A DNA stretch of 64,000 nt, from positions 96,001 to 160,000 of IMG/VR virus record IMGVR_UViG_3300025168_000032. One strand, given 5' to 3'. Below the pieces are notes generated by a model that saw only the letters and a list, made by a program, of their open reading frames with translations, ran no database searches and was not told the origin of the DNA. The position numbers were made by a program, and so were the translations under genes. Positions 46,307 to 62,236 of the stretch are shown one piece after another; the first letter of the stretch is position 1, and each line of letters opens with the position of its first letter. The stretch comes from a virus.

Positions 46307-46310
46307 TAGA

Positions 46311-46352: not shown

Positions 46353-46736
46353 ATGGACCAGATAATTTATATTACAATTTCATTTATAGTAGGAGTAGTT
46401 CTTACGAGGTTGTGGTATAGCATTGTGGGCCTTGGTTATACCTCCATCTTAATGAAGCGTACAATCAATGACTGCTTATTAGTCATGGCTGACAACATAC
46501 AATCGTCTCATGAATCTTGTGAGATCAAATATGCCGCTTTTAAAATCGCGGAGAGAGACGATAAATATATTGAATTTCAAAAAAAGATAGATAAACAACA
46601 ACAAAGGACATTGCAAAAAACAATCATAAGGAACTTTATGAATTCAGTGCCCCAGAGTTATAACCACCTCGTTGAATTCCATGATTGGGACTCTGCAATG
46701 AAACACTTGACCGATCAACTTAAAAGGAGGATTTAA
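46353..46736 (+). CDS. Membrane-anchored hypothetical protein
   Basis: N-terminal hydrophobic helix; GGAG RBS. Confidence 0.65.
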   Translation: MDQIIYITISFIVGVVLTRLWYSIVGLGYTSILMKRTINDCLLVMADNIQSSHESCEIKYAAFKIAERDDKYIEFQKKIDKQQQRTLQKTIIRNFMNSVPQSYNHLVEFHDWDSAMKHLTDQLKRRI

Positions 46737-47350: not shown

Positions 47351-47361
47351 GAGGAATACAG

Positions 47362-48270
47362 ATGGATAAGATTTTTTATAATGAAGCGTCTGCTGTTAAA
47401 CTTGGATGGACGCCTGAATGGTTTGGTGCTTACGAGTTTGATGAAGACTTGCTAAAGAAGATCAGGGCATTTCAGAGGAAATATCACTTAACAGCCGATG
47501 GTATGTGTGGCCCAACTACTTTTCGTAGAATCAACACAGTTCGAGAAGAACAGCTTGAGACTTTTGAACATAAAGAAATTCGAGAGGGCTCCTCAAATCA
47601 CATTATTTACAACAATGATTATTTTCCAATTGACTGGCATAAAGTGGTACTACCATTTAATGCCAATGGCTTAAAACTAACCAAAGGCTATAAGAAGGTG
47701 ACCAAGCAGCGCAAGCCAAAGATGTTCGTTTCGCATTGGGACGTCTGTCTTAGCTCAAAGTCCTGCTTCAAGGTGCTTTCTCGACGTGGCCTTAGTGTTC
47801 ACTTCGCCATCGACAACGATGGAACCATATTCCAGTTCATGGACATGAACCATATAGCTTACCATGCTGGTGGTAAATTCAATACCACTTCGGTTGGAGT
47901 GGAGATCAGCAACGCATATTACCCAAAGTACCAAGACTGGTACAAACGTCATGGCTTTGGAGAGCGCCCTTTAATTGAGGGGCAGAAGGTCCATGGTAAA
48001 AATATGAAACCCTTCACGGACTTTTATCCAGTTCAAAAGCAAGCACTCAAAGCTTTGATGAAAGCTGTCCATGGCGCAATGCCTTGGATTCCCTTGGAGT
48101 GCCCCGTTGACAGCAATGGCGAGACAAGTTACGCTCTCGATCCTGTTGCGTCTAAGAATAGATACAGTGGCTATGTCTCGCATTATCACCTTACAAGGCG
48201 GAAAATCGACTGTGCAGGTCTCGACCTAAAATCTATTTTGGAGGAAATTAAGAATGAAGATAACCAATGA
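47362..48270 (+). CDS. Endolysin: PG-binding domain plus N-acetylmuramoyl-L-alanine amidase
   Basis: IRAFQRKYHLTADGMCGPTT; SHWD...SVHF...AYHAG...SVGVEI...VSHYH...KIDC. Confidence 0.88.
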   Translation: MDKIFYNEASAVKLGWTPEWFGAYEFDEDLLKKIRAFQRKYHLTADGMCGPTTFRRINTVREEQLETFEHKEIREGSSNHIIYNNDYFPIDWHKVVLPFNANGLKLTKGYKKVTKQRKPKMFVSHWDVCLSSKSCFKVLSRRGLSVHFAIDNDGTIFQFMDMNHIAYHAGGKFNTTSVGVEISNAYYPKYQDWYKRHGFGERPLIEGQKVHGKNMKPFTDFYPVQKQALKALMKAVHGAMPWIPLECPVDSNGETSYALDPVASKNRYSGYVSHYHLTRRKIDCAGLDLKSILEEIKNEDNQ

Positions 48271-49615
48271 TCTACTTGATAATCTGATTATAGAGCAGAT
48301 AAGAGTCTTAGCCGAAGATTTGTCTTATAGCATTAAGAGTAATGATGGTCAAGAGTCTCAAGAATTTGAAGACTTACAATCGTTTGCACAGTATATTGTG
48401 GACCTAAGCGATGAAGAGACTTATACAATAAACACACCCCAGACAGATGGAGACGTTCGAGGCTCTGGTGCAACAATTAAGAGCAAGTTTGCATTACCAA
48501 GCAAGAAGTCAAGCGATAATGGCGAGTCCAAAACGGGGTATCTTGGCGACATTCCGATATCGCATTACCGAGATGATATGGTCAGACTACCAGAGATATA
48601 CCTACAAGCATTCAAAAACGCTGGGTTTTCTTCTGGAACGCTTGCAGATAGGATTGCACGGCTCAACAACATGCTTAGTGAATTTGGAACTGCTAAAAAG
48701 GAAAAATCTCCGGCTAAACCGTTGAACGAACAGTTTTCTCAAATATTGGTCGTGGAGTTTTTAGAAAGAGTAGTTTCACACGTTAGGGGTGGAGCAACCA
48801 CAAGACTCAAAGAGGGCGGGTTCTTGTTTGAGTCATTTTTAGCTTTTATTCTGTCTGGAACTTTGCCTGTTGCCAATGATTCATACGAGGACATCATTGA
48901 CAATAAACTTAACAATATATCCGTTAAGTTTATGTCCGAAAAATCATCCTTTTATCAAGCGTGGTCTACCGTTGCTGGCTATTTTAACAAAAACGAAAGC
49001 CCGATGTATCACATCTCAGCCTTGAAGGAAAGAGTCTCCAAGGCAGGAAGTCAGATTTCATTTTACATTAGCGAATTTACATATAAAGATTATTTAAATC
49101 TTGCAAGACAAATTGAGAACATGAACCCAGAAGCTGAAATGGCAGAAACTGATAAAGCGATCTTTATTAAGGGTGGTGGTGTAAACTATTCTGTTAGTAA
49201 TAAACAAGACAACGATACAAGATCAGCCGAAGTTAGCCTCAACGAGTATGAAACTGGTAAAGAGCCAAGAATAACATTCAAAGATTATGGAAAGAATGTT
49301 GGTGGCACCTTATTTCTACCAAGCCAGATCAATATCCGAAAGAAATCCAAAACCTTGATGGATAATTATAACGAAAACATCGATCTCCTATTTAGAGAGA
49401 TTACAAACTTCAGAAAGCTTTCAAACATATTTTTCTCTGTCTCGGATGAGGACACGACCAAAATTGCTGATAAGATAATAACCAGCTATGGACAAATCAA
49501 AACTGGGGTGAATCAGGGATTCAAACAAAGAGAGACAGAAAAGGAAATAAATGAAAAAATTACTTATGAACTACTTGACAAACTTGTAAAAGAGGTTATA
49601 TTAAAGGGTAAGTGA
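48254..49615 (+). CDS. Hypothetical protein with MKIT..LL..LI.E motifs at both ends and a possible restriction-nuclease-like core
   Basis: MKITNDLLDNLIIE; GFLFESFLA...YEDII...ISVKF; C-terminal KITYELLDKLVKE. Confidence 0.6.
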   Translation: MKITNDLLDNLIIEQIRVLAEDLSYSIKSNDGQESQEFEDLQSFAQYIVDLSDEETYTINTPQTDGDVRGSGATIKSKFALPSKKSSDNGESKTGYLGDIPISHYRDDMVRLPEIYLQAFKNAGFSSGTLADRIARLNNMLSEFGTAKKEKSPAKPLNEQFSQILVVEFLERVVSHVRGGATTRLKEGGFLFESFLAFILSGTLPVANDSYEDIIDNKLNNISVKFMSEKSSFYQAWSTVAGYFNKNESPMYHISALKERVSKAGSQISFYISEFTYKDYLNLARQIENMNPEAEMAETDKAIFIKGGGVNYSVSNKQDNDTRSAEVSLNEYETGKEPRITFKDYGKNVGGTLFLPSQINIRKKSKTLMDNYNENIDLLFREITNFRKLSNIFFSVSDEDTTKIADKIITSYGQIKTGVNQGFKQRETEKEINEKITYELLDKLVKEVILKGK

Positions 49616-49622
49616 TTTTAAT

Positions 49623-49781
49623 ATGAATGATCCCAAAGAACAATGGTTGGCAGTTGACAGTATGATTAAGAAACTTAAACGTCTTAAGTACTGGCTAACT
49701 TCCCTTGATCCAGAAAAGAAACATATTATTAATGCTATAAACGAACTCGAACAAGCAAAACAACTATTGGAGGAAAAATGA
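49623..49781 (+). CDS. 52-aa hypothetical protein (not in ORF track)
   Basis: MNDPKEQWL...LLEEK*; stop overlaps groEL ATG; TTGACA-N16-TATATT at 49575-49602. Confidence 0.5.
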   Translation: MNDPKEQWLAVDSMIKKLKRLKYWLTSLDPEKKHIINAINELEQAKQLLEEK

Positions 49782-51343
49782 CGAAACATTATAGCAATGG
49801 GCAGGAGCTTAACACAAGGATTCTGTCTGGGATTAATAAACTGGCAGACAACGTAGCTACGACTCTCGGACCAAAGGGTCGCAACGTAATACTATTCCAT
49901 AAGGAGCAGGGTATCCCTGTTATTACAAAAGATGGAGTAACTGTTGCTAAGTTCGTGGGCTTTGAAGACCCGATGGAAAACGTTGGAGCACAGATTGTAA
50001 AACAAGCAGCAGAGCAGTCTGCTACAAAAGCTGGCGATGGTACTACAACTGCTACTGTCCTGACTAGAGCAATCTTACAGAGGGCCCAGAAGTACCTTAT
50101 GGCTGGTGTTTCTCCAATCGAGATCAAGCGTGGGATGGATAATGCCACAAATCTTATTGTTGACCGTTTGAGTGAAATGTCCACCCCGATTCGATCGGAG
50201 GAAGATATTCGGCACATTGCTACGATCTCAGCGAACAACGACAAATCAATAGGCACTTTGATAGCCACAGCGGTTGATTCAGCAGGTAAAGATGGTTCTG
50301 TTCTTGTTGAAGAAGCAAAATCAATCAACACATCCTTAGATTTGATTGAAGGTTTCCGTTTTGATTCTGGGTATCTATCTTCCACCTTTATCAACAACGA
50401 GAGATCAGGGACCATTGAGTATAATAGTCCCCTCATTCTAATCACAGACGAGAAGATCGAAACCATCGAGCAGATATTACCCACCCTTGAGCTTGCGTCA
50501 AGAGACAACAGTCCGTTGTTGATTGTTGCAGATGTAGAAGGCCAAGCCTTGGCTGCTGTTATCGCCAACGCGGTTCGCGGCACAATGAAAATAGTAGCGG
50601 TTAAACCACCCAGATATGGAGAAGAGAGAAGGAACATATTAAAAGACATGGCTTTGAAGACTGGCGCTACCTTTATAACAAGAGAGAGCGGGGTAGCCCT
50701 GAGACAGGTACAATTGCCCCACTTTGGTAATTGTAAATCGATATCTATCAACAAAGGATGGAGTACCATTGTCGGTGCAAGTGGCCCAGAAGAAGAAACA
50801 GAAAACAGGATTGAAGCACTGAAAGCAGAGATCAAACAAACAGACGACATCAAGGCTTGCGAGAGAATCCAAGAACGGATTACTCGTCTTGCTTCTGGTG
50901 TGGCTGTGATTCGAGTTGGAGCGGCAACAGAGATTGAAATGATGGAAAAGAAACACAGGATTGATGATGCTTTGGAGGCTGTAAGATCAGCACAGGAAGA
51001 AGGAATTGTCTCAGGTGGTGGCATAGCCTTGATTCGAGCAACACAAGATCTACTTGTGCGAACGGAGTCCGAAGAACAGTCTATCGGTGCCAAGATCATT
51101 CTTGAGGCCATTGAAGAACCTCTGCGACAAATGGCTAAAAACGCTGGAAAATCGCCTGATATTCTTGTTGCTAGGGTAAGGCAGTGCTCCTCGAATATGG
51201 GCTATAATTTCATGACTGACACCATTGTGAACATGCTTGAAGAGGGCATAGTAGATCCAGCTAAGGTGACTCGCTGCGCGTTGCAGAACGCTGTCTCAGT
51301 CGCATCCACTTTGATTACCACCAGTCATGCTATTGTATCTTAA
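49778..51343 (+). CDS. groEL: Chaperonin GroEL (no GGM tail)
   Basis: TLGPKGRNV, ITKDGVTVAK, AGDGTTTATVL, GVAVIRVGAATEIE, GIVSGGG, GIVDPAKVTRCALQNA. Confidence 0.97.
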   Translation: MTKHYSNGQELNTRILSGINKLADNVATTLGPKGRNVILFHKEQGIPVITKDGVTVAKFVGFEDPMENVGAQIVKQAAEQSATKAGDGTTTATVLTRAILQRAQKYLMAGVSPIEIKRGMDNATNLIVDRLSEMSTPIRSEEDIRHIATISANNDKSIGTLIATAVDSAGKDGSVLVEEAKSINTSLDLIEGFRFDSGYLSSTFINNERSGTIEYNSPLILITDEKIETIEQILPTLELASRDNSPLLIVADVEGQALAAVIANAVRGTMKIVAVKPPRYGEERRNILKDMALKTGATFITRESGVALRQVQLPHFGNCKSISINKGWSTIVGASGPEEETENRIEALKAEIKQTDDIKACERIQERITRLASGVAVIRVGAATEIEMMEKKHRIDDALEAVRSAQEEGIVSGGGIALIRATQDLLVRTESEEQSIGAKIILEAIEEPLRQMAKNAGKSPDILVARVRQCSSNMGYNFMTDTIVNMLEEGIVDPAKVTRCALQNAVSVASTLITTSHAIVS

Positions 51344-51372
51344 AAGTACTATTTATAGCGGAGGTTCTTGTT

Positions 51373-51639
51373 ATGACTGAAGACCAAATAACAAAAATAA
51401 CAACCGGTATTCTTGAAATCAAAAATGATATCGAAAGAATAGCGGAGAAGCAAGATGAAATGGTGAGAGATATGCGCGATGTAAAGACCGCGATTTACAA
51501 CCCGGACTCGGGTTTGTATGCTAGATTGCGAGCGATAGAGCAATGGAAAGAGGCCCAAGCTAAAATACAATGGGGTGTTATTATGACAGTTTTTGGATTA
51601 TTAACAACCACAATATACAAAATGATAATGAGTTCTTAA
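51373..51639 (+). CDS. Coiled-coil protein with C-terminal membrane helix, holin/XhlA-like
   Basis: Late motif ACTATTTAT at 51348-56; heptad region then WGVIMTVFGLLTT. Confidence 0.5.
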   Translation: MTEDQITKITTGILEIKNDIERIAEKQDEMVRDMRDVKTAIYNPDSGLYARLRAIEQWKEAQAKIQWGVIMTVFGLLTTTIYKMIMSS

Positions 51640-51652
51640 TTCAGGAGGTAAT

Positions 51653-51994
51653 ATGAAAGTAAGAATCAACCAAGCAGTGAATCTCGATGAGGTTCCTGAG
51701 AAATTAACAGACATGATGTCTGATATAAGAAAAGAAATTGGTAAAGTGTCGGAATTATCTATGGAGGCAGAGTCTGCCTCGGAAATAGTTTCTGGTTCAG
51801 TTTTAAAATACCAGCTAGTATTGGAGATGCTTTTAGAAATAAAGCGTCAAGTGTCGGATGTTGACCAAATGGTAGAAGATATGTCATCCATTCTTAATGG
51901 GTACGTAGGCATCCTTGAGCCAAAACCTTCTACCCCCGTACCCGCACCTGAGCCCATACCCGAGCATGTTATAAAAGAACCAGATGCTGACTAA
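51653..51994 (+). CDS. Hypothetical coiled-coil protein
   Basis: AGGAGG RBS. Confidence 0.6.
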   Translation: MKVRINQAVNLDEVPEKLTDMMSDIRKEIGKVSELSMEAESASEIVSGSVLKYQLVLEMLLEIKRQVSDVDQMVEDMSSILNGYVGILEPKPSTPVPAPEPIPEHVIKEPDAD

Positions 51995-52217
51995 GGGCGA
52001 CCTTGTTAAGGTAAAACAGGACACTTTCATGTACCCTGCTACCTTAGAGCCATGGTATATAACCAAGCTAAAAACACCACAATACGGCGTTGTTATAAAG
52101 CAAGAAAGCGAAACTGAGACTAAGGTTTTTGTGAACGAGCAAGCTTGGATCATAAACAATAAATGTTTACAATTAGTGGGAGATTACAATGTTCATAAAG
52201 TTAAACAAAATAAATAA
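51984..52217 (+). CDS. Small GDLV SH3/KOW-like protein
   Basis: MLTKGDLVKV...YGVVIK. Confidence 0.6.
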   Translation: MLTKGDLVKVKQDTFMYPATLEPWYITKLKTPQYGVVIKQESETETKVFVNEQAWIINNKCLQLVGDYNVHKVKQNK

Positions 52218-52470
52218 GACACATTCTGGTGAATTTTATCTGTCAGAGGTAAGGATCAATCCAGCGAAAATACTCTTCATTTCTGAAAATGATCAAATTA
52301 AAGTGGCAATGATGGAAGGAAAAACCCAACTTGGCCTTAACTCTGTAGCTCGATTTTCAGATTTGTCTTTTGCTTTCGATAGCGGCAGCGAGACTATAAC
52401 GGTGGTAGGAGATCCGGCTCTGATAGAGGCCAAGATATTAAGTTCAAATAGACAATTACTTAGGGGATAA
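52189..52470 (+). CDS. FlbD-like small protein
   Basis: MFIKL...INPAKILFISE pattern. Confidence 0.45.
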   Translation: MFIKLNKINKTHSGEFYLSEVRINPAKILFISENDQIKVAMMEGKTQLGLNSVARFSDLSFAFDSGSETITVVGDPALIEAKILSSNRQLLRG

Positions 52471-52471
52471 C

Positions 52472-52750
52472 ATGAATCAATATTACAAAATTTATGCTTG
52501 GGCCGAATGTCCATATTGCATAAAAGCCAAAGAGTTGCTGGTCCGAAACAACAAGCAGTTTATGTTTTGTTGCATTGATGATTCTAAAGAATTGCTAACA
52601 CACATTAAAGAAAAGCACAACTGGATGACAGTCCCAATGATAATCAAACACACAAGAGTAAGCTCAACGGAATGGACTGAGGAGTTTATAGGTGGGTTTT
52701 CGGATCTTACAAAGATCTTTGGAGGTAGTGATGAAGAAATTAATAGTTAA
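52472..52750 (+). CDS. Glutaredoxin
   Basis: CPYC, TVPMI, FIGGFSDL. Confidence 0.9.
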   Translation: MNQYYKIYAWAECPYCIKAKELLVRNNKQFMFCCIDDSKELLTHIKEKHNWMTVPMIIKHTRVSSTEWTEEFIGGFSDLTKIFGGSDEEINS

Positions 52751-53111
52751 AAGAGCACCGCAAAAGAGCCATAAGCCATGGGGACACGAGGTGGAATGGG
52801 CCATAAACAACAAATATATTGGCAAAATTATTCATATTGATAGAATGAAGTCTCCACCCAAGCAATATCATGACGTGAAGGACAAGACTATACATGTACT
52901 TAACGGGGTATTGATAGTTGATGTTTGGGAAAAACCAGACGGCAAATCATTTTCCACCATGGTCTTAACAGAGGGGGAGAGTGTAAGAATTCAACCAAAG
53001 ACAGTCCATAAATTTAGTGCCCCTATCGAAGGTTACGTTAGATTGATCGAAGCATCAACACCACAATATGATGATGTAGTGTTACTACAGGACGATCATG
53101 GCGGAGCTTGA
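52731..53111 (+). CDS. Cupin (mannose-6-phosphate isomerase-like)
   Basis: KPWGHE, QYHDVKDKT, GESVRIQPKTVHKF, EASTP..DDVV. Confidence 0.8.
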   Translation: MKKLIVKRAPQKSHKPWGHEVEWAINNKYIGKIIHIDRMKSPPKQYHDVKDKTIHVLNGVLIVDVWEKPDGKSFSTMVLTEGESVRIQPKTVHKFSAPIEGYVRLIEASTPQYDDVVLLQDDHGGA

Positions 53112-53271
53112 ACCGGAACAAAGATACAGGGTTGAGTTTGTTGACAATGATCATTTTATAACGTGTATGTTTAAAAAACATCATCGTGGTTTTTTGATTT
53201 TTGTTGACGAAAACAACATAAAAATCGTTTGTAGGCCCTCAAGTATAAGGAAAATAGAAAAACACACTTAA
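53098..53271 (+). CDS. 57-aa hypothetical beta protein (not in ORF track)
   Basis: MAELEPEQRYRVEF...KIEKHT*. Confidence 0.45.
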   Translation: MAELEPEQRYRVEFVDNDHFITCMFKKHHRGFLIFVDENNIKIVCRPSSIRKIEKHT

Positions 53272-53343
53272 CGCAAATTATGTAAGAACTCTTTTTAGGT
53301 AACAATGGTCTTTCGGTTCATAGTTATTATAGGGGGGAATGTT

Positions 53344-54036
53344 ATGTTGATATTGTTATTATCGTGTTTGATATCTATGGAGGTAGATGATCAGGCCACG
53401 ACTCTTTCGTTTGAAAACCAAGGTTTACCATCTTGTAATCAAAAGATTACAAGAGGTATGAAAAGCTCAGTCCGTATTGGGTTTTCGTTGGGTGATGGTT
53501 ACGGAGGGTGGGGTTCTGGAAATTATTTTAAGCTTGGAAAGTACAAGTTTGTAATAACGGCAGCCCATGTTGTCGCGGAGGGAAACATATTCCTAATGGA
53601 CAATGACGAAGAGATACCAGTGAGGGTAATATATACTAATGCAAGTAGGGACATCGCTATTGTCGAGCCTTTGACGGACCCGTCTTTTGAGCCTATAAAG
53701 CTTAAGATCAACGACGACCCGGATGTTGTAGGTAATTTAGTCAACTACACAGGTTTTCCAGATAACCTTGGGCAGACTACTTATACAGGTTTTGTGTCTA
53801 AAAGTAATTTAGAATCAATATTAATTCAGTCTTTTGCCCTTCCGGGGTCTTCTGGTTCTGTTGTGTTCGACAAGAAGGGAAGAGCAGTCGGGTTAGTTTC
53901 CGCTGTAAAGGTTATAGATACCCCGCTATCGCCATTCCCAGAGTTAGTTGAAACCCTTGTTTATGTTGAAAGGTTTAGTTTTATAAACAAGAGTTTCCTT
54001 AAGGAGGTATTCATGAGTGCTGACGAAGGAAGGTAA
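53344..54036 (+). CDS. Trypsin-like serine protease with short signal/lipobox
   Basis: ITAAHVV (His), RDIAIV (Asp), PGSSGS (Ser); N-terminal MLILLLSC. Confidence 0.88.
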   Translation: MLILLLSCLISMEVDDQATTLSFENQGLPSCNQKITRGMKSSVRIGFSLGDGYGGWGSGNYFKLGKYKFVITAAHVVAEGNIFLMDNDEEIPVRVIYTNASRDIAIVEPLTDPSFEPIKLKINDDPDVVGNLVNYTGFPDNLGQTTYTGFVSKSNLESILIQSFALPGSSGSVVFDKKGRAVGLVSAVKVIDTPLSPFPELVETLVYVERFSFINKSFLKEVFMSADEGR

Positions 54037-54256
54037 ATCAAGGTTCTCCGTAGGTACTTTGCTTAAGGACACAGGAAAGGTGGGTGTTGTAAGTAAAATA
54101 CTACAATCAGGAGCACTACAGACGGAAGTCTCTACTATCAAGTGGAGATTAAACTATGAAATATGCTATATAGATGGGGATGTACAGATCATAGGCGAGA
54201 GCACGTTGTTAAGGCTCATTGAAGCTGGTGTTATAGAAATATTATCTACTAATTAG
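54017..54256 (+). CDS. Small SH3/KOW-like protein
   Basis: FSVGTLLK...VGVVSKI...YEICY. Confidence 0.55.
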   Translation: MLTKEGKSRFSVGTLLKDTGKVGVVSKILQSGALQTEVSTIKWRLNYEICYIDGDVQIIGESTLLRLIEAGVIEILSTN

Positions 54257-54266
54257 AGGGTCTTAT

Positions 54267-54473
54267 GTGGGTATCGAAAGGAAAGAAACATACGTTAAGG
54301 GTGATCTTGTGATTATTGATGACGACAAAAACTTTAGAGAGATAGCAGTAATTTTATCTCCCAGTATACCCATGTACCATCGGTTATATGAGTTCTATCA
54401 AGTTTTTTCGATCATAGAAGGGTGTGTGTATATCGTCCCCTGTGAGATGGTCAAAGGTCGGATTAAAGGTTGA
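54267..54473 (+). CDS. Small GDLV SH3/KOW-like protein
   Basis: YVKGDLVII...AVIL...YQVF. Confidence 0.55.
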   Translation: MGIERKETYVKGDLVIIDDDKNFREIAVILSPSIPMYHRLYEFYQVFSIIEGCVYIVPCEMVKGRIKG

Positions 54474-54504
54474 CAAACAAAAGTAAACATGTTACATATT
54501 ATAT

Positions 54505-54708
54505 ATGGAGAGGAAAGTGAAAAAATATTATATTGGAGATTTGGTAATGCACATAAGTACTAATCGGATTGGTGTTGTCACTACAGACAGTAACATACTA
54601 CTCGGATACCCACGGGGGGTGCATGTTTGTTACGTTGCGTGGTCAGACACGCACTACTCCAATCTAATGGATATAGGGGCACTCTCCGGAGTTTTCAAGA
54701 GTAAATGA
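54505..54708 (+). CDS. Small GDLV SH3/KOW-like protein
   Basis: YYIGDLVMH...IGVVT...YVAW; TTGACA at 54470. Confidence 0.6.
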   Translation: MERKVKKYYIGDLVMHISTNRIGVVTTDSNILLGYPRGVHVCYVAWSDTHYSNLMDIGALSGVFKSK

Positions 54709-54962
54709 ATTTTAATAATTCTCACTTATCTAAGTCTTTCGAGGATATAGAACATAAGCGTAGATGGTGGCAAGGAAAGCTTGTCAAGGTAAGGAGCACA
54801 ATAAATACACTTTTCATTAACACTCCACCAGAAGAAGAAATAGGAATAGTGGTGGAGTTTCTACAAACAAGCGTTGGCGATCATCTTCGAGTACACTTTG
54901 TAAGTTATGGCAAGTGTACATGGGTTTTCCCGTCTGACGTATTCACACAGGATGAGACATGA
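54705..54962 (+). CDS. Small SH3/KOW-like protein
   Basis: WQGKLVKV...IGIVVE...RVHF. Confidence 0.55.
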   Translation: MNFNNSHLSKSFEDIEHKRRWWQGKLVKVRSTINTLFINTPPEEEIGIVVEFLQTSVGDHLRVHFVSYGKCTWVFPSDVFTQDET

Positions 54963-57204: not shown

Positions 57205-57375
57205 ATGGTTGACGTTGACAAGATAATACAATATGAAAATGGAGAGATGCAGGAAGATGAAGTAATAGAGTTCTTTCAAGAGCTTATTAACACAGGTCAT
57301 GCTTGGACCCTCCAAGGGCATTACGGTAGAGTTGCCAGCGGTCTTATTAAGGCTGGCCTCTGTACAAGACCATGA
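57205..57375 (+). CDS. Small conserved-looking phage protein
   Basis: RBS after promoter copy 3; IIQYENGEM...FFQELINTGHAWTLQGHYGR. Confidence 0.7.
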   Translation: MVDVDKIIQYENGEMQEDEVIEFFQELINTGHAWTLQGHYGRVASGLIKAGLCTRP

Positions 57376-57539
57376 TGATCGGGGACTTGATCTATATTTC
57401 AGATTGGAAGGAGTATGCTATTGTAATGGAGAAGGGCGAGGTTTTTACTGATGAATGCTCATGGCGCGTGTCGATTATCTCAGACCCTGAATTGGTCGAA
57501 GTTTTTAGTTATGAGATGGAGGTGATTAATGAAGCATGA
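57372..57539 (+). CDS. 55-aa GDLV SH3/KOW-like protein (not in ORF track)
   Basis: MMIGDLIYISDWKEYAIV...MEVINEA*. Confidence 0.65.
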   Translation: MMIGDLIYISDWKEYAIVMEKGEVFTDECSWRVSIISDPELVEVFSYEMEVINEA

Positions 57540-57747
57540 ACCAGCTAAATACGAAGTTGGTGACTTGGTTGGCATTGGCTGGAATGGTAAGTTAAAATGC
57601 CCAAATCCAGCCATTGTGATAAAGGTTTTAGACCCCGTTTCTATCTCTTGCGGTAGCACCTTGTATGTCGTCAGACCAGTTAAGGACCATGAGAGTGAGA
57701 GTTGGTGTGACTATACGCATCTGACCCCTTGGGTAACGGACAAATAA
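57529..57747 (+). CDS. GDLV SH3/KOW-like protein
   Basis: YEVGDLVGI...AIVIKV...YVVRP. Confidence 0.7.
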   Translation: MKHEPAKYEVGDLVGIGWNGKLKCPNPAIVIKVLDPVSISCGSTLYVVRPVKDHESESWCDYTHLTPWVTDK

Positions 57748-57781
57748 TGTCCTACCCACCTACCCCTGCCTGTGATATACT
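57738..57781 (+). promoter_or_regulatory. Palindromic early promoter module, copy 4
   Basis: GGACA-AATAA-TGTCC-TACCCA-N17-TATACT. Confidence 0.85.
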
Positions 57782-57805
57782 ATATACATAACCAAGGAGA
57801 ACAAA

Positions 57806-57859
57806 ATGAACGAACATGAAGAAGAAGAAAGAATGTGGAGAACGTGGGGTGACCAATGA
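57806..57859 (+). CDS. 17-aa mini-ORF/remnant
   Basis: CCAAGGAGAACAAAATG context; MNEHEEEERMWRTWGDQ*; ATGA-coupled to next gene. Confidence 0.5.
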   Translation: MNEHEEEERMWRTWGDQ

Positions 57860-58029
57860 AAGTAGGAGATTTAGTAAGATACGATATGGATGATCTTTGC
57901 GTAGGTGTTGTCACCTGCATCGATCCAGAAGAGCTTGGTGATGATGGCGAAGTGGAAGTCGTTTGGGTCGGTGGTGCTGTAAGCAACCATTCAACTTATT
58001 TTTTGGAGGTGATCAGTGAAAATAAATGA
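57856..58029 (+). CDS. 57-aa GDLV SH3/KOW-like protein (not in ORF track)
   Basis: MKVGDLVRY...VGVVT...EVVW...FLEVISENK*. Confidence 0.7.
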   Translation: MKVGDLVRYDMDDLCVGVVTCIDPEELGDDGEVEVVWVGGAVSNHSTYFLEVISENK

Positions 58030-58210
58030 TTTAGTAAAAGTAGGTGACTTAGTAAGGTACAAACATCGTTACATAGGAGAACAGTTTGTAGTTGTAGCCG
58101 TTCGCACAAACCACACCAGCCCCAAACGTCTAAAGGTGCTGTGCGTATCAGCCAAGACCCTAAAAAAAACAAGATGGTCTTGGTCATCGACCGTTAGTGT
58201 GCTTGCGTGA
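58016..58210 (+). CDS. GDLV SH3/KOW-like protein
   Basis: VKVGDLVRY; GGAGG RBS, GTG start. Confidence 0.7.
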   Translation: MKINDLVKVGDLVRYKHRYIGEQFVVVAVRTNHTSPKRLKVLCVSAKTLKKTRWSWSSTVSVLA

Positions 58211-58413
58211 ATGTTGGTGATTTGGTCTGGGTATACCGCAATGCTCACCCAAGCCGAGAAAGGTTTATAGGTGTGATCACTGAGATCGAAGACCCTTGGG
58301 GTTCGGATCGTGGGTGTAGCGTGTTTGTTACCTTTTTTGACGGAGACTGGGGAGTATATCACCCATCCCAAATCAATCTTATCCCAAAAGAGAAAGAACA
58401 TGAAAGTAGGTGA
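58207..58413 (+). CDS. GDLV SH3/KOW-like protein
   Basis: MNVGDLVWV...IGVIT...VFVTF. Confidence 0.7.
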   Translation: MNVGDLVWVYRNAHPSRERFIGVITEIEDPWGSDRGCSVFVTFFDGDWGVYHPSQINLIPKEKEHESR

Positions 58414-58564
58414 TTTAATAGTGCCAACCAAAAGGATGCGAGACTTCGGCTATCACGAGGTTGGTATTGTAATTAGGATATGGGGTGGCAGATCGGTGGT
58501 CGCCTTTCCAGATGGAAGCTCCCAGACTTTCCACCCATCTCAATTGAAACCGGACAAAAATTGA
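58400..58564 (+). CDS. GDLV SH3/KOW-like protein
   Basis: MKVGDLIVP...VGIVI...VVAFPDG...QLKPDKN*. Confidence 0.7.
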   Translation: MKVGDLIVPTKRMRDFGYHEVGIVIRIWGGRSVVAFPDGSSQTFHPSQLKPDKN

Positions 58565-58595
58565 CCTACCCATGTACCCCCGAGCATGATATATT
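58552..58595 (+). promoter_or_regulatory. Palindromic early promoter module, copy 5
   Basis: GGACA-AAAAT-TGACC-TACCCA-N17-TATATT. Confidence 0.85.
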
Positions 58596-58618
58596 ATATG
58601 TAGACCCAAGGAGAAACC

Positions 58619-59323
58619 ATGAGAAGAAGAACATCAGAAGAAATCGCAGCAGCGATTGAAAGAGCAGAACAAATGGGAAGACATAGATCCGTAAAGGTTA
58701 TGGCTGATATGAAAACGCAATTTGACAGCCGAGGGTGTCTATCAGATCGCCAATGGGACTACTTGAACAAACTTATGCTTGATAATTGCAAAGCAGCATT
58801 GGTGGATTTTAATGAATACTTTGAACGCTTTACCACAGATAAAGAGTTTAGGGAAAAGGCGGAGGTCGTGTCTCGATATTACCAAGGGGCCGGACAATAC
58901 TACGTCAGAGCAGCGACGCAAACACTGATAGCATTAAAGAGTAATGACAAGAATGATTTGCCACCGTACCATTCTTTTTCCAAAATGATAAATAACAAAT
59001 ACGCTGATAAGGTATGGGATAGCCATAGTAAACCACCTTTATATTCAGCAGGTGACTTGATAAAAATACGCTCTACTGGTATCAATCGGATATGGAGCCA
59101 AAGAAAAAGCACCGAAGAGGAGCAAGCTGGGATCGAGAACCTCAACAGCCACCCTTGTTTGGTCATCAAGGCAAACGCGAAACCCATCACTACTGCGCTT
59201 CAATACAAACCAAAACAGGGTGGCGCAAGGGTTTACTCTGTTATGCCAGTCGGCAGCACGTTGATTTACTATATCTTAGAATGTGATTTGAAGAAGAATC
59301 GCACACCAAAAGCCAAAAAATAG
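58619..59323 (+). CDS. Hypothetical protein with LSDRQ motif and C-terminal SH3/KOW-like domain
   Basis: GCLSDRQWDYL; LYSAGDLIKIR...CLVI...YSVMP. Confidence 0.65.
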   Translation: MRRRTSEEIAAAIERAEQMGRHRSVKVMADMKTQFDSRGCLSDRQWDYLNKLMLDNCKAALVDFNEYFERFTTDKEFREKAEVVSRYYQGAGQYYVRAATQTLIALKSNDKNDLPPYHSFSKMINNKYADKVWDSHSKPPLYSAGDLIKIRSTGINRIWSQRKSTEEEQAGIENLNSHPCLVIKANAKPITTALQYKPKQGGARVYSVMPVGSTLIYYILECDLKKNRTPKAKK

Positions 59324-59331
59324 GGACTGAT

Positions 59332-59598
59332 ATGGATATTATATTTGAAGAGGTGCCGCTGCCATTCAAACTTGGCCTTGGAAACAAAAATGGCAAGATA
59401 ACAAGAGTGCTGGTGCACCATAAGGGAAATTTTTATATAGTATCAGAGAACACAGCCCTAAAAGAGACGCTGGTTTTTCCTGCTTCTCCAACGGGCGAGA
59501 TACTTGACTGGGTTGAAGTGGGCGGCGGAGACGGATTAACACTAAAAGAGGTTTTGGCTAACTTCGACCAGAACCTACATTCCGAGATGTATTTTTAA
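59332..59598 (+). CDS. Hypothetical protein
   Basis: 88-aa ORF between gene and promoter copy 6. Confidence 0.6.
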   Translation: MDIIFEEVPLPFKLGLGNKNGKITRVLVHHKGNFYIVSENTALKETLVFPASPTGEILDWVEVGGGDGLTLKEVLANFDQNLHSEMYF

Positions 59599-59601
59599 GC
59601 C

Positions 59602-59645
59602 GGACATTTTCTGACCTACCCATCTACCCCTGCCCATGATACATT
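59602..59645 (+). promoter_or_regulatory. Palindromic early promoter module, copy 6
   Basis: GGACA-TTTTC-TGACC-TACCCA-N17-TACATT. Confidence 0.85.
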
Positions 59646-59669
59646 GTATACAGAACCAAGGAGAACCCA

Positions 59670-60539
59670 ATGAAAATATTTGAAGAAAAGAACAGACCCA
59701 CACACAAAAGCAGTGCGAACGCTTGTGGCTATTGCCGCAACACAGGACACAATAGATCCAACTGTCCTCATGCACCAGAAGACTGGTCACACTTTACCAC
59801 TTATCAAATACCATTGAAGACCTCAAAGGTACAATCTCAATGGATAAAGTATCCAAAGTATTGGGGTGCTTGGTATGAAGAGTGTAAAAAGACTGTGGAA
59901 CTTCAACAGCGCAATGCACAAAAGGTCAAGGCTAAAAGATCGACAACCAGACACTGTGGTTTCTGTGGTGATGCTGGTCACACTCGTCGTAACTGCTCAG
60001 AGATGGAGGAGTTCCTTAAACAGTGCTACAAAGCCAATGAGAACTGGCGAAGGGCTGCATACAACATTCTCGTTAAAGAGCATGGCATTGATATAGGGGC
60101 AGCGGTGCAAGTTTCCCAAAGTCAGTGGGTTGGGGGTGAGAATATTAAGACTGAACATATTGGACTCATCACCTCCGTTAATTGGGATAGTTTAAATGTT
60201 ATGACTGCTTATGACAGCGGCTATGATTGGCAGCGGTATGCCCAATGTATTGACGTTAGGGTCATGGTTGACGGAAAAGATCATCGTCTTTCACTAAAAG
60301 ACAAGCTTCACGGTACGTCTCTTTCAGAGGTAATCAACAAGAGAAACACAAATACAGGCTATTATTATCAGCAACTTTCCTTAGACAAGGTGATCGGCAA
60401 GTCAGCGCAGCCACTAAAAGAAGAATGGGTCACGTCTTACAAAGACGCTTTTGATTACCTTGCTAAGAAGCTTAGTTTAGAACAGCTTGAAGATCGTGGG
60501 ATACTCAGTCATATCCAAAGCTGGGCAAATCGGTCATAA
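59670..60539 (+). CDS. Double CCHC zinc-knuckle protein, paralog of 56276..57070
   Basis: CGYCRNTGHNRSNC and CGFCGDAGHTRRNC; shared YKANENW and GLITSVNWDSLNV segments. Confidence 0.8.
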   Translation: MKIFEEKNRPTHKSSANACGYCRNTGHNRSNCPHAPEDWSHFTTYQIPLKTSKVQSQWIKYPKYWGAWYEECKKTVELQQRNAQKVKAKRSTTRHCGFCGDAGHTRRNCSEMEEFLKQCYKANENWRRAAYNILVKEHGIDIGAAVQVSQSQWVGGENIKTEHIGLITSVNWDSLNVMTAYDSGYDWQRYAQCIDVRVMVDGKDHRLSLKDKLHGTSLSEVINKRNTNTGYYYQQLSLDKVIGKSAQPLKEEWVTSYKDAFDYLAKKLSLEQLEDRGILSHIQSWANRS

Positions 60540-60575
60540 TCTGTCCTACCCAATTCCTATCCACCATGATACATT
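60532..60575 (+). promoter_or_regulatory. Palindromic early promoter module, copy 7
   Basis: GGTCA-TAATC-TGTCC-TACCCA-N17-TACATT. Confidence 0.85.
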
Positions 60576-60599
60576 GTATACAGAACCAAGGAGAACAAA

Positions 60600-60752
60600 A
60601 TGAAGTTTAAAGTAGGAGATTTAGTAAAGACCCACCGTGGCAATGTTGCCCTCGTTACAGAGGTTGGCGAAGACTGGTGCAATATACTATTTTGCAACAG
60701 TGGGTTTTTAAGAACTGGCTTTCCAGCGTGGTGGTTAGAGGTGGTACAATGA
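60600..60752 (+). CDS. 50-aa GDLV SH3/KOW-like protein (not in ORF track)
   Basis: MKFKVGDLVKTHRGNVALVTEV...WLEVVQ*. Confidence 0.7.
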   Translation: MKFKVGDLVKTHRGNVALVTEVGEDWCNILFCNSGFLRTGFPAWWLEVVQ

Positions 60753-60898
60753 AAATCGGTGATTTAGTAAAATACGATTACGATGGAGATACCGGCATAG
60801 TCATTGACATAGATGCAACTGGTATGCTTTTCGTTCACTGGAGTGACGGCAAAGAAGGGTGGCATATCCACAGCGAGTTGGAGGCAGTATGCAAGTAG
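60749..60898 (+). CDS. GDLV SH3/KOW-like protein
   Basis: MKIGDLVKY..DTGIVI...FVHW...ELEAVCK*. Confidence 0.75.
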   Translation: MKIGDLVKYDYDGDTGIVIDIDATGMLFVHWSDGKEGWHIHSELEAVCK

Positions 60899-60908
60899 GT
60901 GATTTAGT
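60879..60908 (+). repeat. 30-bp gene-junction repeat, copy 1
   Basis: TGGAGGCAGTATGCAAGTAGGTGATTTAGT. Confidence 0.85.
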
Positions 60909-61044
60909 CAAGAACAGGCACGGCAACACGGGGATCATTACAAAACGATATGGCTTCAAGAAACGGAGGACTTGGTGGGTGCATTGGCTTTGTGGTGAGG
61001 ACTGCCCGATTCATGAGCGATTTGTGGAGGCAGTATGCAGATAG
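60889..61044 (+). CDS. GDLV SH3/KOW-like protein
   Basis: MQVGDLVKN..NTGIIT...WVHW...FVEAVCR*. Confidence 0.75.
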   Translation: MQVGDLVKNRHGNTGIITKRYGFKKRRTWWVHWLCGEDCPIHERFVEAVCR

Positions 61045-61054
61045 GTGATTTAGT
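61025..61054 (+). repeat. 30-bp gene-junction repeat, copy 2
   Basis: TGGAGGCAGTATGCAGATAGGTGATTTAGT (2 mismatches to copy 1). Confidence 0.85.
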
Positions 61055-61271
61055 AAGGATAGATAAGAGTTCCGCTATGGTTGGTCACGTTGGCAAGGTG
61101 GGCTTAGTTGTCAGAAGAGTGAAACAAACATTGAAGCCATCTAACACGTGGCTGATCGCGTTTTCAGATGGCAGTACGGTTATTTTTCATAGAGTAGATT
61201 TATTAGAGGTGCCAAATGAAAATAGGAGATTTAGTACAACTATCAGCTTATGGGGAAGCGAGGAACCATAA
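61035..61271 (+). CDS. GDLV SH3/KOW-like protein
   Basis: MQIGDLVRI...VGLVV...WLIAF...LLEV. Confidence 0.7.
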   Translation: MQIGDLVRIDKSSAMVGHVGKVGLVVRRVKQTLKPSNTWLIAFSDGSTVIFHRVDLLEVPNENRRFSTTISLWGSEEP

Positions 61272-61431
61272 CCACGGTTGGTATGGTGGCTGGGGGCTTA
61301 TATTGGAAATCCATAATGACTCAACCTATCCCATCAAAGCCCAGTGGTACAATACCCGTAGTGGCAAAGATCAAGGCGGAGCGCGATTCCACCCAAGAGA
61401 ATTGAAGAAATATAAACCGGACAAAAATTGA
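61216..61431 (+). CDS. GDLV SH3/KOW-like protein
   Basis: MKIGDLVQL...WGLILEI...KAQW...ELKKYKPDKN*. Confidence 0.75.
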   Translation: MKIGDLVQLSAYGEARNHNHGWYGGWGLILEIHNDSTYPIKAQWYNTRSGKDQGGARFHPRELKKYKPDKN

Positions 61432-61462
61432 CCTACCCATTTACCCCTGACCATGCTATATT
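61419..61462 (+). promoter_or_regulatory. Palindromic early promoter module, copy 8
   Basis: GGACA-AAAAT-TGACC-TACCCA-N17-TATATT. Confidence 0.85.
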
Positions 61463-61486
61463 ATGTACAGAACCAAGGAGAACAAA

Positions 61487-61657
61487 ATGCAAGTAGGTGA
61501 TTTAATGATTGACGAAAAGACCTTGAGGGAAATAGGGGAAGCAGTTTATGTCATCTTTCTTGGTTACAACCAATGGGGTGAGATCAAGGTTATGCTTCCA
61601 GACGGATTTGTTTACCAAGGCTGCGAATTGGACTTCAAGGAGGTAGTATGCAAGTAG
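61487..61657 (+). CDS. GDLV SH3/KOW-like protein
   Basis: MQVGDLMID...FKEVVCK*. Confidence 0.7.
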   Translation: MQVGDLMIDEKTLREIGEAVYVIFLGYNQWGEIKVMLPDGFVYQGCELDFKEVVCK

Positions 61658-61667
61658 GTGATTTAGT
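61638..61667 (+). repeat. 30-bp gene-junction repeat, copy 3
   Basis: AGGAGGTAGTATGCAAGTAGGTGATTTAGT (2 mismatches). Confidence 0.85.
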
Positions 61668-61866
61668 AAAGCAAAAAAGCGATTGGGTTCGGCACAATCC
61701 GTGGATGAGTGGTACTGAACTTGATGACAGCCCAGACATCTTGGGAATTATAGTAAAGGTTGAGGTTCCAGCGTGTTCCATAACATCTGGCTGGTATATA
61801 ATTGAATGGCTGAACGGTGGAAGGAACCACACAAAAGGAGACAGGTTGGAGGCAATATGCAAGTAG
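61648..61866 (+). CDS. GDLV SH3/KOW-like protein
   Basis: MQVGDLVKQ...LGIIVKV...YIIEW...LEAICK*. Confidence 0.75.
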   Translation: MQVGDLVKQKSDWVRHNPWMSGTELDDSPDILGIIVKVEVPACSITSGWYIIEWLNGGRNHTKGDRLEAICK

Positions 61867-61876
61867 GAGATTTGGT
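61847..61876 (+). repeat. 30-bp gene-junction repeat, copy 4
   Basis: TGGAGGCAATATGCAAGTAGGAGATTTGGT (3 mismatches). Confidence 0.85.
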
Positions 61877-62069
61877 AACAAGAGATAAGTACCACATGAG
61901 TCATGGCAAATTATTCGGAACCATCGTAAAAAGGAAGCCGCTGGAATTTTGCTTGGGCCCCGACGGAAAGCAGGCATATCAATATAAAATCTATTGGTTG
62001 TGTTGTCAAACAAAGATTTGTGCCGATGACTGGTGGATCGATCAATTTTTGGAGGCAGTATGCAAGTAG
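61857..62069 (+). CDS. GDLV SH3/KOW-like protein
   Basis: MQVGDLVTR...FGTIVK...YKIYW...FLEAVCK*. Confidence 0.75.
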   Translation: MQVGDLVTRDKYHMSHGKLFGTIVKRKPLEFCLGPDGKQAYQYKIYWLCCQTKICADDWWIDQFLEAVCK

Positions 62070-62079
62070 GTGATTTGGT
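62050..62079 (+). repeat. 30-bp gene-junction repeat, copy 5
   Basis: TGGAGGCAGTATGCAAGTAGGTGATTTGGT (1 mismatch). Confidence 0.85.
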
Positions 62080-62236
62080 AACCCACAGACCAACAGGAGC
62101 GGTGGGTATTATTATAGAAGAGAACGGGACCAGTGTCTGTATCGTGTGGAACTACGACCCATTGCATAAAGACGAGGGTGAAGAGGAGTGGATAAGCAAG
62201 TTTTTCATCGAAAACCTAAAACCGGTCAAAAAATGA
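62060..62236 (+). CDS. GDLV SH3/KOW-like protein
   Basis: MQVGDLVTH...AVGIII...CIVW...LKPVKK*. Confidence 0.75.
   Translation: MQVGDLVTHRPTGAVGIIIEENGTSVCIVWNYDPLHKDEGEEEWISKFFIENLKPVKK

What the first reader, a model, noticed from the sequence alone, without database searches (positions are those of the whole stretch)
57372..62236. Large expansion of 50-95-aa 'GDLV' SH3/KOW-like mini-proteins (about 24 in window, 15 within 5 kb)
Members start M(K/Q/N)(V/I)GDL(V/I), continue with a G(I/V)(V/I) strand and an aromatic (W/Y/F) strand, and often end LE(V/A)(V/I). The loops are hypervariable. Stand-alone ORFs are at 34921, 38580, 39018, 43960, 51984, 54017, 54267, 54505, 54705, 57372, 57529, 57856, 58016, 58207, 58400, 60600, 60749, 60889, 61035, 61216, 61487, 61648, 61857 and 62060; several are missed by the 60-aa ORF cutoff. 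A conserved small beta-barrel scaffold with variable surfaces suggests a diversified binder library, for example anti-defence or host-protein inhibitors.
Basis: partly seen in the sequence, partly recalled or inferred. Interest (0 to 1): 0.7.

Follow-up and report, generated by a model that had tools for sequence, protein, structure and literature searches.

The report
Shuffled SH3-like phage mini-gene array
An uncultured 186-kb marine T4-like phage carries about 24 very different copies of one tiny barrel-shaped protein, encoded as overlapping genes that close relatives gain, lose and swap at a shared joint; the genes are kept by selection, but what the proteins bind is unknown.

Summary
All 24 listed ORFs exist, and 15 lie in 57372-62236. 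About 20 are supported as one family by leave-one-out profiles; 4 are weak (61487, 43960, 54017, 54705).

A high-confidence model (pLDDT 92) is a five-stranded SH3/Tudor/KOW-type small beta-barrel. No member reaches any Pfam or PHROG threshold.

Orthologs in related marine phages show dN/dS of 0.10-0.25. Surface positions are as constrained as scaffold positions (0.11 against 0.12), so the genes are real and old. There is no sign of active diversification.

Much of the N- and C-terminal "motif" is DNA architecture:
- The LE(A/V)(V/I) tail carries the Shine-Dalgarno of the next gene.
- Stops lie inside the next gene's ATG-MAR-GTA-GGT-GAT codons, giving overlaps of 4, 10 or 14 nt.

The 15 genes sit in four cassettes bounded by a ~70-nt dyad-plus-promoter repeat that resembles T4 PeSLs.

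A relative about 92% identical in DNA differs by five whole-mini-gene insertions or replacements, and every breakpoint falls in the junction.

The binder / host-takeover function is inferred, not shown.

This scan has already reported the same phenomenon in at least 8 other genomes. I found no paper that describes it.

The parts
57372..57747 (+). Cassette 1 mini-genes: 57372-57539 (55 aa) and 57529-57747 (72 aa). They overlap by 11 nt. The second is last in its cassette and has no LEV tail.
   Evidence: leave-one-out E 0.046 and 0.013; orthologs of 57529 in L001 and L007
57856..58564 (+). Cassette 2 mini-genes: 57856-58029, 58016-58210, 58207-58413 and 58400-58564. Overlaps are 14, 4 and 14 nt. 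The last gene ends KPDKN* inside the next dyad.
   Evidence: orthologs at 56-75% aa identity with dN/dS 0.17-0.22
60600..61431 (+). Cassette 5 mini-genes: 60600-60752, 60749-60898, 60889-61044, 61035-61271 and 61216-61431. Overlaps are 4, 10, 10 and 56 nt. The 60889 gene is the modelled member. The 61216 type is the most widely conserved subfamily and is always last in its cassette.
   Evidence: dN/dS 0.16-0.19
61487..62236 (+). Cassette 6 mini-genes: 61487-61657 (weak member), 61648-61866, 61857-62069 and 62060-62236. All three overlaps are 10 nt (ATGCAAGTAG).
   Evidence: repeat family D4; dN/dS 0.13-0.25
34921..54962 (+). Nine dispersed members among replication and metabolism genes. Supported: 34921-35205, 38580-38873, 39018-39248, 54505-54708. 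Marginal: 51984-52217, 54267-54473. Not significant on their own: 43960-44130, 54017-54256, 54705-54962.
   Evidence: orthologs in L001 and L006
57136..57204 (+). Cassette-boundary element: dyad GGWCA-N5-TGWCC, then TACCCA (-35-like), a 17-nt spacer, TGnTATATT (extended -10), AAGGAG and ATG. Further copies start at 57737, 58551, 59601, 60531, 61418, 62223, 62575 and 62871. Upstream copies are near 55317 and 55966.
   Evidence: (repeat families D1, D2, D6). There are about 15 copies, all in genome 151.3-162.8 kb and all on the + strand.
60869..60910 (+). Example of the dual-coding gene junction. TTGGAGGCAGT-ATG-CAA-GTA-GGT-GAT-TTA-GT encodes the LEAVCK* tail of the upstream gene, the SD, and the MQVGDLV start of the next gene. 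Other copies are at 60729, 61015, 61628, 61837 and 62040.
   Evidence: (D4: 6 copies of 42 nt, 67-86% identical)
57205..57375 (+). Non-family first gene of cassette 1 (56 aa, DUF7417). Its real start lies after the promoter element, not at 57067.
   Evidence: PF24192, E 2e-17, 63 bits
58619..60539 (+). Cassettes 3 and 4 hold larger non-family genes: 58619-59323 (234 aa), 59332-59598 (88 aa) and 59670-60539 (289 aa, two CX2CX4HX4C knuckles). They interrupt the mini-gene array.
   Evidence: orthologs in L001, L007-L009, L013

Best explanation
This is an old, clade-specific multigene family of stand-alone SH3/Tudor/KOW-type small beta-barrel proteins (49-97 aa). It lies in the hyperplastic accessory region of a marine, distantly T4-like myovirus.

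Shown:
- The genes lie in cassettes of 2-5 overlapping genes. The overlaps suggest translational coupling, which was not measured. Each cassette sits behind a repeated dyad-plus-sigma70-like-promoter element.
- Each gene boundary is one ~35-40-nt quasi-repeat. It holds the next gene's SD (read as Leu-Glu-Ala/Val in the upstream gene), the ATG, and the GTA-GGT-GAT-TTR-GTA codons.
- The TAG and TGA inside those codons terminate the upstream gene in either other frame.
- Close relatives differ by whole mini-genes that are inserted, deleted or replaced, with breakpoints inside that junction.
- Each ortholog is under purifying selection over its whole length.

Inferred:
- Homologous recombination at the junctions, and at the promoter elements, moves mini-genes through a shared pool in the phage population.
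- Each barrel is a small binding module with its own partner. The module is most likely made early or in the middle of infection and acts on host proteins (takeover or counter-defence).
For: Fold:
- The AF2 model of 60889-61041 has pLDDT 92 and five strands.
- The best PDB matches are Tudor, NusG/Spt5 KOW and NdhS, with Z 7.5-7.9 and rmsd 0.9-1.7 A over 44-50 of 51 residues. Foldseek TM is 0.75-0.83.
- The 100-member profile hits MIB1 SH3 repeats and eS4/Spt5 KOW at E 6e-4 to 5e-3.

Selection:
- Ten ortholog pairs give dN/dS 0.10-0.25.
- Pooled values are 0.12 for scaffold and 0.11 for other positions.
- The last six codons give 1.0 with low dS, as expected for dual coding.

Junction:
- Of 58 overlapping adjacent pairs, 22 overlap by 4 nt, 18 by 10 nt and 13 by 14 nt.
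- Genes followed by a gap of at least 40 nt mostly lack the LEV tail; 4 of 35 have it.
- Codon choice in V-G-D-L-V is far narrower than for the same residues elsewhere: GTA 66 against 27%, GGT 72 against 34%, GAT 89 against 61%, with p from 1e-6 to 1e-14.

Shuffling:
- L013 is ~92% identical in six colinear blocks but differs by five whole-gene events. All block edges fall in the junction.
- The L007 mosaic switches partner inside ATGAAARTAGGTGATTTAGTA.
- Gene and cassette order differ in L006-L008.

Clade-wide distribution:
- 10-17 members lie in each 6.5-13-kb locus of L001-L004, and the two whole records give 23 and 16 matches.
- 593 representatives match in 1.84 billion proteins.

Distinct partners:
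- pI ranges from 4.1 to 10.6, and no surface position is conserved.

Cassette elements.
Against: - No experiment or homology links any member to a target or a phenotype.
- The time of expression is guessed from promoter-like sequence only. The -35 box is non-canonical (TACCCA), and the dyad could be an activator site rather than a terminator.
- The host is unknown.
- Fold-search scores (Z<8, Foldseek E 0.05-0.2) are in the range that the tool warns may reflect only a common arrangement, although every top hit belongs to one fold class.
- Only one member has a confident model.
- Four of the 24 listed ORFs are not demonstrable members.
- Recombination at the junction is inferred from breakpoints, not observed.
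Confidence: 0.6

Rival explanations
1. All members address one class of target. They are KOW/Tudor-type adaptors that dock on the host transcription-translation machinery (RNA polymerase beta lobe, ribosome, Rho/NusG partners) or on nucleic acid, rather than on many unrelated host proteins.
For: The best structural matches are NusG/Spt5 KOW, eS4 KOW and the UvrD/PcrA C-terminal Tudor domain. The model of 54017 matches the CarD RNAP-interacting domain and UvrD-CTD bound to the RNAP lobe best, at Z 6.3-6.8. The profile hits KOW-bearing ribosomal proteins and Spt5.
Against: No exposed residue is conserved across the family. pI spans 4.1-10.6 and a third of members are acidic, which fits neither uniform nucleic-acid binding nor one docking site. 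Fold similarity of this size is generic. The 54017 model has low confidence.
Confidence: 0.15
2. The mini-genes are nearly neutral passengers. The junction repeat makes any small ORF easy to duplicate and move, so arrays grow by recombination drive and the proteins do little.
For: Turnover between ~92% identical genomes is very high. An unrelated helical 65-aa ORF rides the same junction in L013. Cultured relatives (Mel-JY01, immuto) have no copy.
Against: Orthologs keep dN/dS of 0.10-0.25 at dS up to saturation, including surface positions. Frames stay open in all loci. The 61216 subfamily is retained in every related locus examined.
Confidence: 0.15
3. This is an actively diversifying binder library. 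The loops would be under positive selection or targeted mutagenesis, in the manner of a diversity-generating retroelement.
For: Loops and outward-facing strand positions are extremely variable among paralogs.
Against: In orthologs the non-scaffold positions are as constrained as the scaffold, 0.11 against 0.12. No template/variable repeat pair was found: only the junction and promoter repeats appear. Variation arises by exchange of whole genes, not by point changes in loops.
Confidence: 0.05
4. Members translated together from one cassette assemble into hetero-oligomers, such as Sm-like rings, so the cassette rather than the single gene is the functional unit.
For: Overlapping genes consistent with translational coupling suggest equimolar synthesis of 2-5 paralogs per cassette. 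Some small barrels (Sm/Hfq, R67 DHFR) are obligate oligomers (general knowledge; R67 appears).
Against: Neighbours are swapped freely between near-identical phages, which is hard to reconcile with fixed partners.
Confidence: 0.05

Closest known systems
PeSL (promoter-early stem-loop) cassettes in hyperplastic regions of T4-type phages (Arbiol et al. 2010, PMC2839356; Comeau et al. 2014, PMC4122927)
   Same: A repeated composite element sits between small accessory genes. It comprises the upstream stop, a stem-loop, a sigma70-like promoter, the SD and the start, and it is confined to a variable region. Related phages differ by indels and swaps bounded by the repeats.
   Different: A second, finer layer exists here. 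Single genes are exchanged at a ~35-nt dual-coding junction inside operons, with no promoter or stem-loop. The cargo is one protein family rather than unrelated ORFans. The -35 box is TACCCA, not the host consensus. Promoter and terminator activity and mini-circles were not tested.
SH3/Tudor-like small beta-barrel clusters of phage proteins (Viral AlphaFold Database, PMC12487901); survey of small beta-barrels (bioRxiv 10.1101/140376)
   Same: Same fold class. That paper reports these as the largest bacteria-virus-only structural clusters, about 1.3% of proteins, with no function given. BFVD matches are uncharacterised phage mini-proteins.
   Different: This genome carries about 24-28 copies. 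They are organised in overlapping arrays with a shared junction, a feature that paper does not describe.
KOW domains (NusG, Spt5, uL24, eS4) and bacterial Tudor-like domains (UvrD/PcrA C-terminus, CarD/Mfd RNAP-interacting domain)
   Same: A five-stranded barrel with a G-D-x-V start of strand 1 and a G-(I/V)-(I/V) strand 2. Z is 7.0-7.6 at rmsd 1.1-1.9 A. Profile E-values are 1e-3 to 5e-3.
   Different: No member matches PF00467 or any KOW/Tudor Pfam model at its threshold. The proteins stand alone with no partner domain. The KOW glycine-rich loop is replaced by a loop of variable length.
Integron gene-cassette arrays
   Same: Arrays of small, promoter-less, same-strand genes that are gained, lost and reordered as units at a short repeat at each boundary.
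   Different: There is no integrase and there are no attC hairpins. The repeat is coding and is shared by both neighbours. Exchange is presumably by general homologous recombination. This is an analogy only.

Membership tests
SH3-like / Tudor / KOW small beta-barrel fold class | Five-stranded, highly bent antiparallel barrel of about 50-70 residues | tested here: met
   The model of 60889 has pLDDT 92 and strands at 6-9, 14-23, 28-34, 38-42 and 46-48. All top PDB matches are of this class, with Z up to 7.9 and TM 0.75-0.83. Only one member was modelled with confidence. The 54017 model is weak but of the same class.
Pfam KOW motif (PF00467) | Score over the gathering cut-off (22.3 bits) for the KOW motif | tested here: not met
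   None of 100 members matches PF00467 at E<=0.1. Only KOWx/KOW6_SPT5 appear, at E 0.01-0.03. Long multi-repeat relatives (P0018, P0065, P0115) do pass, by summed repeats.
Pfam DUF4314 (PF14192), SH3_15 Mind-bomb repeat (PF18346), SH3-C_UBE2O (PF23044) | Score over each family's gathering cut-off | tested here: not met
   The best scores are 18.6 bits (cut-off 27), 17.3 (24) and 17.9 (21), and at most 3 of 100 members match. The family profile hits the MIB1 repeat structure at E 5.6e-4, so distant kinship is possible.
PHROG families (phrog_9237, phrog_3782) | Significant match to a catalogued phage protein family | tested here: not met
   Only 4 of 100 members match phrog_9237, with best E 0.0022, and that family has no function assigned.
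PeSL-type regulatory cassette | Repeated intergenic composite of stem-loop, sigma70-like promoter and SD/start, clustered in a variable region | tested here: met
   About 15 copies lie only in genome 151.3-162.8 kb. Each has a 5-bp dyad with a 5-nt loop, then TACCCA, 17 nt, TGnTATATT, AAGGAG and ATG. The anatomy matches the published description.
PeSL-type regulatory cassette | Promoter and terminator activity; early timing | not testable with these tools
   This is a sequence resemblance only. The generic promoter scan did not single these sites out. No MotA or AsiA homolog was found, but that search has no positive control.
PeSL-type regulatory cassette | Related phages differ by exchanges bounded by the repeats | tested here: met
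   Cassette order differs in L007 and L008 relative to the window. The finer exchanges are at gene junctions, not at the promoter elements.
Diversity-generating retroelement target | Template/variable repeat pair with adenine-specific differences, and a nearby reverse transcriptase | tested here: not met
   The repeat search of 57000-62600 returns only the junction and promoter repeats. Ortholog loops are under purifying selection. A reverse transcriptase was not searched for specifically.

The most novel reading that the evidence does not exclude
The array is a natural plug-and-play cassette system. A population-wide pool of small-barrel binders, each neutralising a different host defence or host factor, is dealt out to individual phage genomes by recombination at a junction. 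That junction has evolved to be frame-proof: it carries the SD, the start, and stops in both other frames. The result would be integron-like cargo exchange without an integrase, and a ready-made scaffold family for binder engineering.
Probability: 0.25. Interest if true: 0.85.

Novelty: new variant of a known kind. Interest (0 to 1): 0.55.

Why it matters
Small SH3/Tudor-like barrels are reported as the largest phage-only fold class, and their function is unknown (PMC12487901). This locus gives that class a concrete genetic system with four testable properties:
- dozens of paralogs per genome;
- purifying selection on each paralog's own surface;
- overlapping genes whose layout suggests coupled expression;
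- unit-wise exchange between strains at a dual-coding joint.

If the members are host-directed binders, the arrays are a large untapped source of inhibitors and counter-defence proteins in abundant marine phages. The junction would then be a new, integrase-free way of shuffling genes. It extends the PeSL idea from promoter cassettes down to single genes inside operons.

Tried and rejected
- Megablast and blastn of the region against 50,697 phage records found nothing beyond a 24-nt chance hit.
- tblastn of one member found only chance hits in Lactococcus tape-measure genes, at E 0.1-1.
- The cultured phages nearest by major capsid protein (Microcystis phage Mel-JY01, Flavobacterium phage immuto) have no copy. 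The huge phage LR756508 has one.
- A Pfam scan of long multi-repeat relatives, looking for an informative fusion partner, returned only KOW/SH3-type repeats.
- hhalign of the four weak ORFs against the family profile aligned only 12 columns for two of them and gave 16-50% probability for the others.
- The language-model atlas search returned only unnamed clusters, and the atlas structure library was not available.
- The homodimer test with complex prediction could not be run because the machine was unreachable four times. Nothing is known here about self-association.
- The MotA and AsiA searches were empty, without a working control.
- Literature searches for the motif or for described arrays of this kind found nothing.
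- A DGR-type mechanism and a polyprotein or frameshift reading were considered and dropped. Each gene has its own SD and ATG, and variation comes from whole-gene exchange.


Full report
**Context.** The window is bases 96001-160000 of a 185,652-bp IMG/VR virus record that is estimated 92% complete.
- Large ORFs match a T4-type major head protein, tail sheath, DnaB-like helicase, ribonucleotide reductase and GroEL.
- The capsid protein is only 47-50% identical to its nearest neighbours. These are Flavobacterium phage immuto, Microcystis phage Mel-JY01 and an uncultured 484-kb phage.
- The region has no close DNA match among 50,697 phage records.
- Relatives come from marine metagenomes, including TARA.

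**Observation.**
- All 24 start coordinates give open + strand frames of 49-97 aa, and 15 of them lie in 57372-62236.
- The 20-nt start motif occurs 11 times in the window, against 0.03 expected.
- In leave-one-out profile tests, 13 members have E<1e-3 at genome scale and 7 are marginal.
- Four are not significant on their own: 61487, 43960, 54017 and 54705. For two of these only the N-terminal motif aligns.
- The whole genome holds a few more weak copies outside the window.

**Fold.**
- With the 20 window paralogs as the alignment, member 60889-61041 folds with pLDDT 92 into five strands.
- An exhaustive structural comparison puts Tudor domains, NusG and Spt5 KOW domains, NdhS and PsaE on top. 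Z is 7.0-7.9 and rmsd is 0.9-1.9 A over 44-50 of 51 residues.
- Foldseek agrees, with TM 0.75-0.83 and weak E-values.
- The scores are in the range where the tool warns of generic similarity. Even so, every top hit belongs to the same fold class.
- The 100-member profile reaches the Mind-bomb SH3 repeat and KOW-bearing proteins at E 6e-4 to 5e-3.
- The weakest listed ORF, 54017, was modelled with its two orthologs. It gives pLDDT 70 in one of five models, and that model matches the CarD and UvrD Tudor-like domains best. This is consistent with membership but is not proof.
- No member passes any Pfam or PHROG threshold.
- All 210 word-search relatives are unnamed.

**Scaffold and surface.** In 100 aligned members from this phage and nine related loci:
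- G4, D5, L6, V7, G15, the two hydrophobics after it, an aromatic at 29, V/I31, W33, D35-G36 and L46 are conserved.
- Alternate strand positions and the loops exceed 3 bits of entropy.
- The first loop takes insertions of 0-19 residues.
- Isoelectric points run from 4.1 to 10.6.

**The genes are real and old.**
- Ten ortholog pairs (56-90% aa identity) give dN/dS of 0.10-0.25.
- Pooled values are 0.12 for scaffold codons and 0.11 for all other internal codons.
- So each paralog's own surface is conserved, and there is no sign of ongoing diversification.
- The last six codons give dN/dS 1.0 with depressed dS, which is the signature of overlapping coding.

**Anatomy of the array.**
- A ~70-nt repeat occurs about 15 times, only in genome 151.3-162.8 kb. 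It runs: dyad GGWCA-N5-TGWCC, TACCCA, a 17-nt spacer, TGnTATATT, AAGGAG, ATG.
- The repeat divides the finding's stretch into cassettes. The 15 mini-genes occupy four of them (2, 4, 5 and 4 genes). Larger genes fill the others.
- Within a cassette the genes overlap.
- Across all loci, 22 of 58 adjacent overlapping pairs overlap by 4 nt, 18 by 10 nt and 13 by 14 nt.
- The upstream tail Leu-Glu-Ala/Val is TTG-GAG-GCA/GTG, which is the next gene's Shine-Dalgarno.
- The upstream stop is the TAG in GTA-GGT or the TGA in GGT-GAT of the next gene.
- Genes with no coupled successor mostly lack the LEV tail, and several end inside the dyad as KPDKN* or KPVKK*.
- When the next gene uses GGA instead of GGT, the upstream frame runs on. 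The 61035 gene gains 18 residues in this way and overlaps its neighbour by 56 nt.
- Codon choice in the V-G-D-L-V motif is much narrower than for the same residues elsewhere in the same genes, with p from 1e-6 to 1e-14.
- Part of both "protein motifs" is therefore a DNA-level constraint.

**Shuffling.**
- Related IMG/VR loci carry 10-17 members in each 6.5-13-kb locus, and two whole records give 23 and 16 matches. The cultured relatives have none.
- Only about a third of the window's members have orthologs in L001, although flanking genes are about 60% identical.
- The clearest case is L013, the end of a 140-kb contig, with L014-L016 in support. It is ~92% identical to window 56654-62688 in six colinear blocks.
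- Between those blocks it differs from the window as follows:
  - an extra non-family 65-aa ORF and an extra 56-aa member;
  - three other members in place of the bodies of 60600, 60749 and 60889;
  - a different 52-aa member in place of 61487;
  - no 61648;
  - an extra 49-aa member before 62060.
- Every block edge lies in the junction. Homology ends just after the GDL(V) codons and resumes at TGGAGG..ATG.
- An alignment of L007, L006 and two window junctions shows the partner switch inside ATGAAARTAGGTGATTTAGTA.
- Several of the alternate genes recur in other loci, so the phages draw on a shared pool.

**Function.** Nothing links a member to a target.
- The position behind repeated sigma70-like promoters resembles the PeSL-rich early regions of T4-type phages. 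Timing is untested, and the dyad could be an activator site.
- I judge a set of specific binding modules aimed at host proteins to be the most likely reading. The reasons are the stand-alone interaction fold, the per-paralog surface conservation, the varied charge and the high strain-level turnover.
- A shared transcription or translation target, near-neutral passengers, and cassette-level hetero-oligomers remain as rivals.

**Prior knowledge.**
- SH3/Tudor-like barrels are reported as the largest phage-only fold clusters, with no function assigned.
- I found no paper on such arrays or on the motif.
- This scan's own notes describe the same phenomenon in at least eight other genomes, and the same dyad element in this genome. 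I read those notes after reaching the same reading.

Noticed in passing
window 56276-57070 and 59670-60539: Two paralogous proteins (26% identity, E 2e-21). Each has two CX2CX4HX4C zinc knuckles of the retroviral nucleocapsid type and a conserved C-terminal part. No Pfam family passes its threshold. Zinc knuckles of this type are unusual in phages.
   Followed up: partly
window 55317-64000 (genome 151.3-162.8 kb): The dyad GGWCA-N5-TGWCC abuts the -35-like TACCCA, so its centre lies near -44. That is the position of a class II activator site. With a poor -35 box, it may be a regulator-binding site rather than, or as well as, a terminator stem-loop.
   Followed up: partly
window 57067-57375: The longest ORF (102 aa) runs through a promoter element. 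The real gene is probably 57205-57375 (56 aa), a clear DUF7417 member (E 2e-17). Its orthologs head a mini-gene cassette in L006, L007 and L013.
   Followed up: partly
window 57806-57859: A 17-codon acidic leader ORF (MNEHEEEE...) sits between the promoter element and the first mini-gene of cassette 2. It overlaps that gene's start by ATGA.
   Followed up: no
L013 1378-1575: A 65-aa predicted helical ORF, unrelated to the barrel family, is inserted at a mini-gene junction in the 92%-identical relative. The junction can therefore carry other cargo.
   Followed up: no
window 61035-61271: This mini-gene has an 18-residue C-terminal extension that overlaps the next gene by 56 nt. The next gene encodes Gly as GGA, which removes the usual TGA stop.
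   Followed up: yes
window 49778-51343 and 53305-54036: A phage-encoded GroEL (phrog_5725, E 6e-143) with a 440-aa antisense ORF that is probably spurious. Nearby is a trypsin-like peptidase with a hydrophobic N-terminus.
   Followed up: no
proteins P0001, P0002, P0007, P0039: Metagenomic proteins of 340-800 aa are made of 3-9 tandem copies of a very similar FK(V/I)GD(L/R)V barrel joined by linkers. These are fused counterparts of the stand-alone array, of unknown origin.
   Followed up: partly
window 38580-38873: This dispersed member carries a Cys/Asp-rich tail (CVACDCDPCDC) after the barrel, possibly a metal-binding extension.
   Followed up: no
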